DNA of 64,000 nucleotides from Octopus vulgaris (taxonomy: Eukaryota), in contig OX597817.1 of NCBI GenBank assembly GCA_951406725.2, positions 37,448,001 through 37,512,000 on the forward strand, in the 5' to 3' direction. A program made the position numbers and the translations under genes. The notes under the pieces are model-generated. The model searched no databases, had not been told where the DNA came from, and worked only from the letters and a program-made list of their open reading frames with translations. Positions 1,390 to 64,000 of this stretch are shown here, in pieces; position 1 is the stretch's first letter; every line of letters starts with the position of its first letter.

Positions 1390-1440
1390 TTTGTCAAAAT
1401 ATTTTCTTCGCTTTAAGACCGCGACCTGTTCACTGACAAA
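1390..1440 (-). ncRNA. Inverted copy of the G3:C8 hammerhead-like motif
   Basis: Reverse complement of 1479-1529 with one stem II mismatch at 1407. Confidence 0.5.
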
Positions 1441-1478
1441 AATCCGTACTGCATACTTTCTCAGATGCAGCACGGATT

Positions 1479-1529
1479 TTTGTCAGTGAACAGGTCGCGG
1501 TCTTAAAGCGACGAAAATATTTTGACAAA
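1479..1529 (+). ncRNA. Minimal type-I hammerhead ribozyme-like motif, G3:C8 core variant
   Basis: UUUGUCA-GUGAACA-G-GUCGC-GGUCUUAAA-GCGAC-GAAA-AUAU-UU-UGACAAA: 7-bp stem I, 5-bp stem II, palindromic stem III. Confidence 0.6.
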
Positions 1530-1770
1530 TTAAACTTAAATGTTGGAGTGAATCTAACAGCTTTTGTGAGTTTCTTAAATGGCTTACAAACACCTTCCAC
1601 ACTGCAATTATTTTCGTTTCAGCACACGATTTCAGATCAAATCACTTGCTATGCAAGTACATCTCCTATATATATAGTTAATCCAAACAAGAAAGCTAAA
1701 AAAAAACAACGCGAGGACGTGGAACAAATATAGTATTATTGAACGCTCAGGAAAGAAGGAAAGAAAGAGG

Positions 1771-1805
1771 GTTTAACGTTTCGAGCGGAGCTCTTCGTCG
1801 GAAAC
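1771..1805 (-). ncRNA. Minimal hammerhead-like motif with CCGACGA core in a (TA)n-flanked repeat at about 1678-1878
   Basis: GUUU-CCGACGA-A-GAGC-UCC-GCUC-GAAA-CG-UU-AAAC; palindromic AACGUU stem III. Confidence 0.5.
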
Positions 1806-2165
1806 ATAGAAGGAAAGATCCAGAGAAGGGAAGACAGAGGGGAAAAAATCGCCAACGGTACACACGCGGTCACATTTTATATATACATATATATATATAT
1901 ATATATATATATATATATATATATATATGCTATTTATTACTATCGTACAGTTTACAATTTTGTTTATAAATTCCGTTTCCTAAGCATATTTCGGTAGTTA
2001 GAAACGGAGAGTTGTGTGATAATCCCGATGAGAAATAAATAACACTTGTCCGTTTTATCATTAGTAAACAAGCTGCCGGAAATTATTTCATCTTATCACG
2101 AGACATAATTTATATTCTTTTAGAACATATAAATTTTATTCCATATGTATATATATAAACACATA

Positions 2166-2845
2166 CGAGATAGTATCAAAAGGCTCCAGAACTAGTTATG
2201 TTTAATGAAAAATAACTTATTTACCAAAGTTTTCAACATTATCTCTTACGATATAATCACCTTGGATTATATACACCGGTCCCAGCGATCCTGTTTGGAA
2301 GTGGTTTTCCAGCGATCCGGTTTGGAAGTGGTTTTCCAGCGATCCGGTTTGGAAGTGGTTTTCCAGCGATCCGGTTTGGAAGTGGTTTTCCAGCGATCCG
2401 GTTTGGAAGTGGTTTTCCGTAAGCGAGTCAAGGACTTTCTGCGATTAGCTGTGGATCTCGACAATGGTGTTAAAACGGCGACCTTTCAGCTGCATTTTCA
2501 TCTTGGGGAAGGGATTGGAAGTCCGTAGGTGCTAAATTTGGTGAATAGGGCAGGTACGAAAGCGATGATACAATGTTGCTTTTGGCGAGAGGCACTCGAG
2601 TGAGGAGAGTTCGGGTACAGGGTGCATTGTCGTTGTGAAGAATCTGATCGTTCGTACTCCACAGATCTGGTCACTTTCACCGAATGTTCTCCCTCAAACG
2701 CTTCAACACGTCGCAGTAGGGGGCGAATTCTCGATTCACAATACCACATCTCAGGGGGTGACGCTCGTGGCAACTTTTCCAGAACGCTCATCGTCTTCCA
2801 GTGATGTTCTTCCTCTTTTCAAGCGCCGTATTACTCGAAACATGA
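2166..2845 (-). mobile_element. Decayed mariner fragment, same family as 33369-34799
   Basis: TA followed by TIR CGAGATAGTATCAAAAGGCTCCAGAACTAGT; internal sequence matches the transposase region of the 33.4-34.8 kb copy. Confidence 0.75.
2283..2417. repeat. 27-bp minisatellite, 5 copies, inside the mariner fragment
   Basis: CAGCGATCCGGTTTGGAAGTGGTTTTC x5, one substitution in copy 1. Confidence 0.95.
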
Positions 2846-4047
2846 CGGTTATTCCAACCTCTAACTCGACTAACCTTTTATATATACATGTATGTATATA
2901 TATATATTATACGTGTGTATGTATATATGATATTGTAAATGTTATATATCATTTAAATGCTAAAAGGACTTCTTAATTACCTTATACACGTGTGTGTGTT
3001 TACATACGTACTTATTTCTAAACACACGCGCGTGCGCGCGCGCACGCACGCACACACACACACATATATATATGTAATGTGTATTCATATATGTATTCAT
3101 AAACACACACACAAGCACACACACAAACACAGACACCTATATATATGCACGTGCACATACAAAAATGCCTACATATGTGTGAGTGTGTGTATATGCATTC
3201 GCAAGGCTCTGTGTGTGTGTGTCTGTGTGTGTGTGTGTGTGTGCGTATGTGAATTGAACTCTATCCTGTTCTAGCGTGTGCATTTGGTATTGAGGTCACA
3301 CGTCCCCAAGGAGTTTCTTCTACGAATCGAAATAGTGGCAATCAGTTGCTCATCTCGGATCCTCATTAACTTGAGTGTTAAAGCAAAACAAATTAAGGTT
3401 CAATTATTTTTGCGTACACAAAATAGATTATTACTGCGGTGATAATGTGATTTCTCCGTGCACACTGTCGAATTTGGAATGCAAATGCAACAAATATCTT
3501 CAGATACCACATACAATATTGATCGAACGTCACCCCACCTACGACTGTCGTATGCAACATGTCACTGAACAGTATTCAGATCAATAAATTATGGTGTTGT
3601 TTAAGCATCATAGAGATTTGATAAGACCAAGTAAATCGAGGCTGTTATGAATCTTTAAATCACACGATATACTACATACAGGTGCATATTCTCTAATGAG
3701 TTTAGTATGTCACTAAGGAGAGTCTAAGGTAAATCGAAATATTGTGATCTAGTTATTCACCACTGGCTTTCAAGACATTAATATTTCAATGAAAATAACT
3801 TAATTCTATGTTTACCTATACAAAATAGACTGTTGTAGTTAAATATGTTTCTTCTAATTTAGAGTAGAATGGCTTCTGTCGGGTTCACTTTCATACAGCA
3901 CGCAACATGAAGACGAAAGCTGCTGTTGATCCAAGTTTCCGCTGATGGTTACTTAGCTTTTATGGAGAATATTGCATACAAAGAAAGTTAGTCATTAAGC
4001 TAAAAGAAAATATAACCAATTACTAACGGTGGGTATCATAATGTAAA

Positions 4048-61761: not shown

Positions 61762-61999
61762 ATCTATAGTTTTTTACATCATAATAAGGGTTCCATTTCA
61801 AATATCGAAATGACATGCATAAATAGAAATATCGAGAAGTGAGGGAAATGGCTGACCTCAAAAATTACACTCTTTTATCGTTAACTTTTTTATTTTATCT
61901 TTTATTTTTATTACTGGGTTTCGGATTTTTGCCTTGAACGTAAGAGATTCAGAATCTTGACTTTTTGATTTTCTCATTAACTAAAAGCTTTTATTGTTT

Positions 62000-62303
62000 A
62001 CACTTTACTTGCTTCAGTCATTGGACTGGGGCCATGCTGGGGCACCGCTTTCAAGGCTTTGGTTGATAAAATCGACCACAATACACATTTTTTTTTAAAG
62101 TCTAGTTCTTATTCTATAGGTCTTTTTGACGAATTGCTTAGTTGCGAGGACGTAAACAAACCAACAACTGTTTCCAGCAGTAGAGGGGTACAAATACAAA
62201 CACATACACACATATAATATACACAACTGGGTACCACATGTTTCCATCTATCACAAGGCACTGGTCAGTAAACTGGGCTTCTTAACCACACAACCACGTC
62301 TGC
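62000..62303 (-). mobile_element. Old degenerate SINE family A
   Basis: TTCAGTCATTGGACTG..GCCATGCTGGGGCACCGC tail and partial body. Confidence 0.7.
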
Positions 62304-62789
62304 AAAAATACTACATGTGTGTGTATGCGCGTGCGTGTGCGTGTGTGTGTGTGAATTCCATAACACAATTCGGTAGCTGATTATCAAATATTATTTTTAG
62401 ATTGGCCGATTCCAAATCTTCGCTGTTCAAAAATAATTCCAATCCCATTTTATATATATTTCTGTCTTTAAAACAATAATAAACATATTGAGTTTTTCTC
62501 TTTAAATACGTTTCAATGAAGGAACGAAGTTTAAAATAAACACTTGTTTATCGTCTTCATTAAAACTAAATGTAAGGATAATCAACAATGAGATACAATC
62601 AAAATTCTAGAAGAATAGAAGCGCTTCAGAAAAGAATCATATGTGAATAAACATTGGCTTTTTATAAATATGATAGCATTAGGAAGATTGCACATATAAA
62701 AATCATGTCTATACTTCTTTGATAAAGCATAGAAATATTTATGAAAGTGAAATGTATTCATGGATTAGCAATCAGTGAAGGATAACATA

Positions 62790-63100
62790 TATATATACAT
62801 CACCATGATCACTGTGACTGACCAGGCTATTAGATGTTGCTACACATCGCTGGTCACAATGCGCTTCGCTTTGTTTTAGCCTCCAAATGACACAACCCCG
62901 CTGACTAAGCGAGCAGGCCAACAGAAGAAAGAGTGAGAGAAAGTTGTGGCGAAAGAGTACAGCAGGGATCGCCACCACCCCCTGCCGGAGCCTCGTGGTG
63001 CTTTAGATGTTTTTTCTCAATAAATACTCACAACGCCCGATCTAAGAATCGAAACCGCAATCCTATAACCGCGAGTCCGCTGCTCTAACCATTTGGCCAT
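62790..63100 (-). mobile_element. SINE with family C head and its own tail
   Basis: ATGGCCAAATGGTTAGAGCAGCGGACTCGCGG head; lies within (TA)n. Confidence 0.8.
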
Positions 63101-63126
63101 TATATATATATATATATATATATGGT

Positions 63127-63170
63127 ATCAAAACTTTTGTCGCACCAATTGCGACCTGGTCACTGCGATG
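63127..63170 (-). ncRNA. Decayed G3:C8 hammerhead-like motif (second locus)
   Basis: GCA-GUGACCA-G-GUCGC-AAUUGGU-GCGAC-AAAA-GUUUUGAU; G12 is lost by a change consistent with CpG decay. Confidence 0.45.
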
Positions 63171-64000
63171 GTTCTACTTCTACTGCATATATATACATAT
63201 GTGTGTGTGTGTATACATTGTGTGTGTGTATGTGTGTGTTTTACAGGGTACATAAAATAACCTGCCTAAATAATGCCGAATCACAAGACGTCCTAAAACA
63301 GGCGCGATTTATATCAGAAGTGGAATATTTCAAAGAAATTCGTTGTCACTACTTCTGTTTCCACTGAACGCTTTCCCCATTTAGTACCGCTTTAACGTCT
63401 GCTAGAAGTGAATACAAAATAAATGGCAGCAAGATTTGACATTCTCTCATCAAACAGAATATCTTCTAAAAGTCACAGGCTACATCATAACTGGAATACT
63501 TTAAAATCTATGTCTGCTTAACTGGAAGATGTGAGTATGAGAGACCGCGTAGTTGCAAGAGCAAAGACGAAAACCAATTAAAGAAAATGTAATCATTTTC
63601 TTTCCTAGTACATCTGTATGTGTGTCTGTATGTAACCGTACGTTTACATATAATTTCTTTACTTGTCATTTGGGCAAATAATTTGGTTGCTCTAAATTAA
63701 GAGGATTTTATAGGTGTCTTTTATATTAATCTTTTGCCTGACTTGTGTATCGCATGATACACAGGACATATTTGCGCGACGTCCATCTTATATGGTACAT
63801 GTTCCCAATCTCTTTCAACCAACAAAATAACTTAGGATTTATGAAAGGAAAGCAAGGAAAGCATTATATTACTCAGAATGTATGAAACAGCGGGTAACTA
63901 AAAATATGAAAACAATCATGGAACTTCTGAACAAACTTATGAAAATGCTTTGAGTATGCAATGGTTTAATAACTTACCTTGTTTAAATAAATTACCTTGT

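What the first reader, a model, noticed from the sequence alone, without database searches (positions are those of the whole stretch)
1390..63357. Several hammerhead-like motifs across the window, none with the canonical core
Seen: GUGANCA at 1390-1440, 1479-1529 and 63127-63170; CCGACGA at 1771-1805 and 22326-22382; weaker relics at 36725-36770 and 63315-63357. Most lie in short inserts next to (TA)n, and two are tied to palindromes. I found no intact CUGANGA hammerhead by eye. Inference: this is a diversified system of non-autonomous, ribozyme-bearing Penelope-type or retrozyme elements that favour TA microsatellites, and genome-wide copy numbers could be large.
Basis: partly seen in the sequence, partly recalled or inferred. 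Interest (0 to 1): 0.75.

Follow-up and report, generated by a model that had tools for sequence, protein, structure and literature searches.

The report
Variant-core hammerheads in Penelope retroelements
Most of these motifs are end pieces of several families of jumping elements in an animal genome, and thousands of copies carry hammerhead RNA motifs, predicted to cut themselves, whose normally fixed core letters were changed in the parent elements rather than by decay, though cutting is untested.

Summary
Five of seven motifs are real members of hammerhead-bearing retroelement families; two 'relics' are not confirmed. The variant cores are family traits, not decay. Family A (1390-1529) has a G3:C8 swap in 87 of 100 copies picked without regard to the core (0 canonical), with at least 7,785 copies. 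It is the 3' end of a young Penelope-like element (PLE) with a 1,025-aa open frame, so it is not a non-autonomous family. Family B (1771-1805; 12,664 hits) has U4C in 75 of 100, has a canonical sister subfamily, and ends an older PLE. Family C (22326-22382) is a 360-nt non-coding, retrozyme-like unit with U4C. D (63127-63170) is a dead copy of an older G3:C8 family. Related families show C:G, G:C and U:A at the 3:8 pair. 'None canonical' holds for the window only: canonical cores are the commonest class genome-wide. PLE hammerheads, U3:A8 and viroid U4C are published. I found no natural G3:C8 in print, but a key paper (Lünse 2017) was unavailable. This scan noted G3:C8 before on other DNA, including this genome. 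Cleavage is untested.

The parts
1310..1666 (.). Family A insertion: two back-to-back 5'-truncated 3' ends of a Penelope-like element. The left arm ends at the first family 3' end (+121 from the core) and the right arm runs on through the further ~57-nt tail.
   Evidence: Arms 134 of 143 identical; boundaries against a young full copy; family ends
1479..1529 (+). Minimal type I hammerhead, G3:C8 core (G3 = 1486), palindromic stem III; predicted cut 3' of 1522
   Evidence: family consensus
1390..1440 (-). Same hammerhead on the inverted arm (G3 = 1433), damaged by C11.1 to A at 1407
1677..1878 (-). Family B short copy between (TA)n runs, beside the A tail; 3' end of an older PLE
1771..1805 (-). 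Minimal type I hammerhead, CCGACGA core (C4 = 1800); predicted cut after 1775
22146..22439 (-). Family C: most of one ~360-nt non-coding retrozyme-like unit, with a TATA-like run upstream of the hammerhead
22326..22382 (-). Type I hammerhead with 6-bp stem I, distal stem, 4-bp stem II opened by A:U, 8-nt palindrome and CCGACGA core (C3 = 22370); predicted cut after 22338
63125..63177 (-). Family D: old G3:C8 relative of A; this copy has lost G12
36675..36860 (-). Family E repeat end with a short inverted 5' piece; the 36725-36770 hairpin is not a hammerhead in register
63315..63357 (-). F: decayed hairpin, not confirmed as a hammerhead or as a family

Best explanation
The confirmed motifs are type I hammerhead motifs at the 3' ends of four repeat families (A and B ends of Penelope-like retrotransposons, C a 360-nt non-coding repeat, D a likely older relative of A) whose parent elements fixed G3:C8 or U4C cores, and they likely still cut slowly, in pairs and with protein help. 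Shown: family consensus cores, copy numbers, linkage of A to an intact RT-GIY-YIG frame and of B to broken ones, covariation of the stems and of the 3:8 pair across related families, (TA)n bias, inverted junctions. Inferred: a promoter in the end repeat starts transcription just upstream of the hammerhead. A single hammerhead cannot form stem III and stays uncut, so short RNAs are copied back whole by the PLE protein into TA-rich DNA; this would give the 150-210 bp copies seen here, which in A mostly begin 19-25 nt before the core. In tandem transcripts two hammerheads would pair through their palindromes and release unit RNAs, which for C could close into a self-paired circle. The window simply sampled variant families.
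For: A: 7,785 exact 13-mers against 16 control; core left free, 87 of the first 100 of 3,864 hits are GUGANCA and 0 canonical; 34 of 45 endonuclease hits have the motif within 3 kb downstream, mostly about 1.1 kb, including a 1,025-aa open frame (GIY-YIG above the Pfam cut-off). No core variant at 5% or more in contigs from four organism labels. B: 75 C4, 23 U4, 2 A4 in the first 100 of 12,664 hits; C4 and U4 track linked sites (best p 2e-7; 27 against 20 copies); 4 of 15 long copies share sequence up to RT or GIY-YIG remnants about 3 kb upstream. C: 73 of 84 CCGANGA, 1 of 84 canonical; 360-nt period; circular fold z = -4.7; 14 of 18 pairs change on both sides across 10 chosen relatives. 3:8 pair GC 6, CG 2, UA 1 in 9 chosen A-like motifs. 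Literature: in an anole PLE the engineered C3G/G8C double mutant partly cleaves, cleavage needs protein, and uncut RNA is the main template (PMC11167929, passages); a viroid U4C variant stays infectious (PMC3088659, passage).
Against: No cleavage or RNA-end data. 0 of 121 A copies start at the predicted cut (+36; nearest +30 and +39), though the set was enriched for intact motifs. U4C lowers activity considerably in vitro (PMC3088659). C lacks G10.1:C11.1. In monomer folding the hammerhead form is not the minimum-energy form for B and C (-3.8 against -6.5 and -7.3 against -10.3 kcal/mol), and the A palindrome is a weak dimer helix (-2.0). Two relatives of C have an unpaired-type U3:G8 core. 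Pfam support for the RT of A is weak (RVT_1 E 0.051 on a fragment; none on the full frame); I read it as a PLE RT from its motifs. The alignments were hand-picked and related, so the shuffle controls overstate significance.
Confidence: 0.6

Rival explanations
1. The fold is kept, but the variant cores no longer cut: the motif serves as a protein-binding or RT-positioning structure, or merely rides along, and the core changes drifted to fixation in master elements.
For: Catalytic mutants did not reduce PLE insertion in vitro and no RNA-seq ends were found at the cut (PMC11167929). Naiads spread without canonical hammerheads (PMC8557442). No copies start at the cut. B holds C4 and U4 side by side.
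Against: The 3:8 pair stays Watson-Crick in 9 of 9 A-like motifs and 8 of 10 C-like motifs while changing identity, and G5, A6, G12-A14, A15.1:U16.1 stay fixed in the C set. Those are the constraints of catalysis.
Confidence: 0.3
2. All are short non-autonomous retrozymes spreading through circular RNA.
For: Most copies are short, and A copies start in a narrow zone (-19 to -25 in 21 of 38). C has the size, tandem layout and self-pairing of a retrozyme.
Against: A and B continue upstream into PLE coding sequence. Short A copies begin upstream of the hammerhead, not at the cut.
Confidence: 0.12
3. The variants are per-copy decay or chance matches.
For: Individual copies are damaged (A-, D), and E and F do not qualify.
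Against: Core-free counts, shuffles, reversed-pattern controls.
Confidence: 0.03

Closest known systems
Minimal type I hammerheads in PLE pseudo-LTRs (Cervera & de la Peña 2014, PMC4209133; parts 1-2 of 4 read, one of two supplements searched)
   Same: Extra base between 9 and 10.1, G10.1:C11.1, palindromic stem III region, position at the end of an RT-GIY-YIG element, thousands of solo copies, pairs on opposite strands; U3:A8 covariation reported in Schistosoma.
   Different: G3:C8 and U4C are not in the text read or in the supplement passages returned; here they are the consensus of families with thousands of copies, one with an intact frame.
Lünse, Weinberg & Breaker 2017, about 150,000 small PLE hammerhead variants (not held; content recalled, title seen in reference lists)
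   Same: Short stem III, PLE association, dimer cleavage (per the review PMC6765202, passages).
   Different: Unknown: it may already list these cores or cephalopod examples.
Metazoan non-LTR retrozymes (Cervera & de la Peña 2020, PMC7229834, passages and section 14; Li et al. 2026, 10.64898/2026.07.22.740005, part 1 of 5)
   Same: Family C: non-coding ~360-nt unit, tandem copies, type I hammerhead, strong self-pairing, PLE-like inverted junctions; mussel units are 350-390 bp.
   Different: U4C core and A10.1:U11.1; relatives use U3:A8; circles not shown here.
Anolis PAc Poseidon hammerhead (Frangieh et al. 2024, PMC11167929, passages)
   Same: PLE hammerhead, two 3' ends (tail), AT-rich targets; C3G/G8C partly active.
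   Different: There the swap is an engineered mutant; here it is the natural state.
Natural core variants (Perreault et al. 2011, PMC3088659, section 8 and passages)
   Same: U3:A8 in nature; U4C in a viroid.
   Different: Rare single cases; G3:C8 is not named in what I read.

Membership tests
PLE minimal hammerhead (A, B, D) | Canonical CUGANGA core | tested here: not met
   A 0 of 100 canonical; window B is C4, while 20 of 100 family copies are canonical
PLE minimal hammerhead (A, B, D) | Watson-Crick 3:8 pair, G5, A6, A9, G12-A13-A14, A15.1:U16.1, H17 | tested here: met
   A+ and B; the D family has them but the window copy lost G12
PLE minimal hammerhead (A, B, D) | Extra base after A9, G10.1:C11.1, palindromic 15-16 region | tested here: met
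PLE minimal hammerhead (A, B, D) | Self-cleavage as a dimer | not testable with these tools
   Only folding energies
Penelope-like element (A) | One ORF with RT and C-terminal GIY-YIG, hammerhead in the end repeat | tested here: met
   1,025-aa frame, GIY-YIG 25.4 bits against cut-off 22.6; RT by motif, Pfam weak
Penelope-like element (A) | 5' truncation, inverted 5' copies, optional tail, TA-rich targets | tested here: met
Penelope-like element (B) | RT-GIY-YIG coding sequence upstream of the hammerhead | tested here: met
   Broken frames in 4 of 15 long copies; GIY-YIG E 0.001, below cut-off; no intact frame seen
Penelope-like element (D) | Linked RT-GIY-YIG ORF | not tested
   Only 17 short matches
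Non-LTR retrozyme (C) | 170-400 nt non-coding tandem unit, highly self-paired, type I hammerhead with 6-bp helix I and 4-bp helix II | tested here: met
Non-LTR retrozyme (C) | Canonical core and G10.1:C11.1 | tested here: not met
   1 of 84 canonical; A:U opens stem II
Non-LTR retrozyme (C) | Expressed circular RNA | not testable with these tools
   Only assembled contigs of runs not on record as RNA were available
Hammerhead (E, F) | Core and stem II in register in the family | tested here: not met

The most novel reading that the evidence does not exclude
Octopus-type PLEs and retrozymes have explored the whole catalytic-pair space of the hammerhead (C:G, G:C, U:A at 3:8; U or C at 4). The weak cores were selected to slow cleavage so that uncut RNA remains as the template, and family A is the first natural, massively successful G3:C8 ribozyme, switched on only by dimer pairing and the element's own protein.
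Probability: 0.3. Interest if true: 0.7.

Novelty: new variant of a known kind. Interest (0 to 1): 0.5.

Why it matters
Standard descriptors and Rfam miss these motifs, so hammerhead censuses built on CUGANGA would miss a large share of the motifs in this genome (raw variant matches together exceed canonical ones). Why PLEs keep hammerheads at all is open: cleavage was dispensable in vitro (PMC11167929). One genome now offers matched natural pairs: B subfamilies differing at position 4, A-like families differing at 3:8, and a young element with an intact protein. These make the question directly testable.

Tried and rejected
Whole-window Rfam scan: the 150 rows shown of 343 were microsatellite-driven matches below gathering scores. 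Idea that family C carries a LINE ORF1-like gene as cargo: rejected. The ORF1-only units sit at one site about 35 nt upstream of the core with target-like repeats; inverted arms at the same loci are uninterrupted; C subtypes and unit 5' types occur in all four combinations; and the same units enter other TATA-downstream sites. Idea that E lost 5 nt from a CCGAAGA/CUGAAGA ancestor: 0 genome matches for the one pattern tried, so unsupported. Idea that U4 in B is CpG decay of C4: rejected, since 23 of 100 change there against 2-3 of 100 at the other core CpG changes, and linked sites follow. Which B state is ancestral: midpoint rooting only, undecided. Copies beginning at the cut: none seen in A (0 of 121); one C copy starts at +35, near the predicted +33 (1 of 70); not informative. 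Expression: no RNA holder listed; contigs cover A and C in four runs but show no ends; a head-to-tail C joint in X1 is also expected from genomic tandems. PDB search with the A protein: 0 hits. Papers not held: Lünse 2017, Przybilski & Hammann 2007. My first notebook entry wrongly calls the A- lesion G12A; it is C11.1A.
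Full report
Setting. The window is G000:C4:37448001-37512000 in a 2.8-Gb, microsatellite-rich animal genome; that it is octopus-like is my inference from its repeats and agrees with earlier scan notes.

Observation. All seven stretches are at the stated places. A descriptor scan returns A+ (1486), B (1801) and C (22370) as complete type I motifs. A strict version finds 2 sites against a mean of 0.08 in 60 shuffles. A- has C11.1A and D has G12A. No canonical motif passed the descriptors in the window. Rfam finds nothing at A or B and only a sub-threshold Hammerhead_1 match at C.

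Are the cores family traits? Patterns with the core left free answer this. A: 3,864 hits, 0 control; of the first 100, 87 GUGANCA and 0 CUGANGA; the exact 13-mer occurs 7,785 times against 16. B: 12,664 hits; of the first 100, 75 have C4, 23 U4 and 2 A4; 70 are CCGANGA and 20 fully canonical. C: 84 hits, 73 CCGANGA and 1 canonical. The first-100 lists come from the start of one contig. With position 4 masked, 27 C4 and 20 U4 copies differ at 13 alignment columns (p < 0.005) and 19 of 20 U4 copies group together with four C4 copies, so these are subfamilies. D relatives are mostly GUGACCA.

Canonical cores are common elsewhere. Generic patterns gave 37,152 against 3,039 control for CUGANGA, 22,545 against 4,127 for GYGANCA and 20,688 against 2,275 for CCGANGA. 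These counts are redundant, with up to four matches per site and unequal between strands, so they rank classes only roughly.

What carries the motifs. A: two loci linked a GIY-YIG coding end to the motif through a shared 3' UTR. A protein search returned 150 scored copies, most of the top ones 96-99% identical. In 50 loci, 34 of 45 distinct hits had an A-type motif downstream; 5 of the 11 misses had under 620 nt of sequence available. L267 holds a 1,025-aa open frame with GIY-YIG above the Pfam cut-off and a CxxxCxxC linker of the kind described for Neptune and Nematis PLEs (PMC8557442, passages). The window copy belongs to a slightly different stem II subfamily. Position-picked copies end at +121 or run on through a tail, and 21 of 38 begin at -19 to -25, about 25 nt after a TATA-like run; a further 14 alignments stop at -8 to -1, partly through divergence. 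B: long C4 copies share more than 1.6 kb upstream, and 4 of 15 reach broken RT or GIY-YIG frames. C: direct repeats 360-363 nt apart with inverted 5' copies; the cut-to-cut unit folds as a circle at z = -4.7 against 100 shuffles; I found no PLE ORF tied to it.

Covariation. Ten chosen C-like motifs, one per visible subfamily out of 39 listed, keep 96.7% of cells paired, with 14 of 18 pairs changed on both sides; 3:8 is U:A in 5, C:G in 3 and U:G in 2. Nine chosen A-like motifs show G:C 6, C:G 2 and U:A 1 with invariant G10.1:C11.1. The sequences are related, so this is support and not a probability. Contigs under four organism labels show no core variant at 5% or more in A.

Relics. E is a family of at least 1,494 candidates whose hairpin lacks G8-A9 in register; longer copies hold a different CUGAUG...GAAAC motif some 330 nt upstream, apparently split by a GT-AG intron. 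F has one weak relative.

Mechanism. Shown: anatomy, copy numbers, linkage and covariation. From the literature: PLE hammerheads have palindromic stem III regions and cut weakly as dimers (PMC4209133); in an anole PLE cleavage needs protein, C3G/G8C partly restores it, and uncut RNA is the main template (PMC11167929); U4C weakens but does not abolish function in a viroid (PMC3088659). Inferred: monomer RNAs from the end-repeat promoter stay uncut and are copied into (TA)n; tandem RNAs cut in pairs; C may circularise. I give this 0.6, against 0.3 for a retained but non-cutting fold. Against my reading: no copies start at the A cut, weak predicted dimer helices for A and B, and no RNA evidence.

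Novelty. PLE hammerheads, retrozymes and U3:A8 are known. Searches for G3-C8, C3G with G8C, the core strings, U4C and hammerhead with octopus found only engineered swaps and the viroid U4C. A 2026 octopus repeat annotation (PMC13282606, passages) has 0 occurrences of ribozyme or hammerhead. Lünse 2017 could not be read, and one supplement of PMC4209133 was not searched; either may list these variants. Earlier notes of this scan report G3:C8 in this and other genomes and the ORF1-unit targeting; a word search for U4C notes returned nothing. Verdict: new variant of a known kind, interest 0.5.

Noticed in passing
L061, L137-L156, L160-L179, L197-L236: ORF1-only (CCHC knuckle, ~1.8 kb) Tx1-type units insert head to tail about 25-35 nt downstream of TATA-like runs, including just upstream of the hammerhead in family C and its U3:A8 relatives, and ahead of a full APE-RT LINE. 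This marks the likely start site of C. Noted before by the scan.
   Followed up: partly
L083: L084, L091 about 330-500 nt upstream of the E hairpin: A CUGAUG...G|AAACGCGUC motif appears to be split by a GT-AG intron, so the hammerhead would form only after splicing; degenerate and read by eye.
   Followed up: no
L167:1518, L168:3711, L173:8149, L004:2920, L199: U3:A8 hammerhead families, in both retrozyme-like and PLE-like architectures.
   Followed up: partly
window 1666-1878; also L022: Family B sits in the (TA)n right after a family A end in at least two loci, so these elements nest in each other's TA tails.
   Followed up: no
window 1044-1121: Short exon-like stretch ending in GT with a weak tetraspanin match (E 0.37); the A and B insertions may be intronic.
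   Followed up: partly
window 2282-2418: 27-bp minisatellite, 5.1 copies, 99% identical, ahead of a LINE-like fragment.
   Followed up: no
L029: Family A ends in a ~167-bp tandem separated by (TA)n.
   Followed up: no
L063:1770-2432 and 7964-8509: Two intronless dCMP-deaminase-like ORFs (named from motif recall), each next to an inverted family A end, about 6.2 kb apart; possibly a retrocopy moved with A.
   Followed up: no
L129:7787 (about 18 kb right of the window): Another CCGACGA...CGAAA motif with a different stem II.
   Followed up: no
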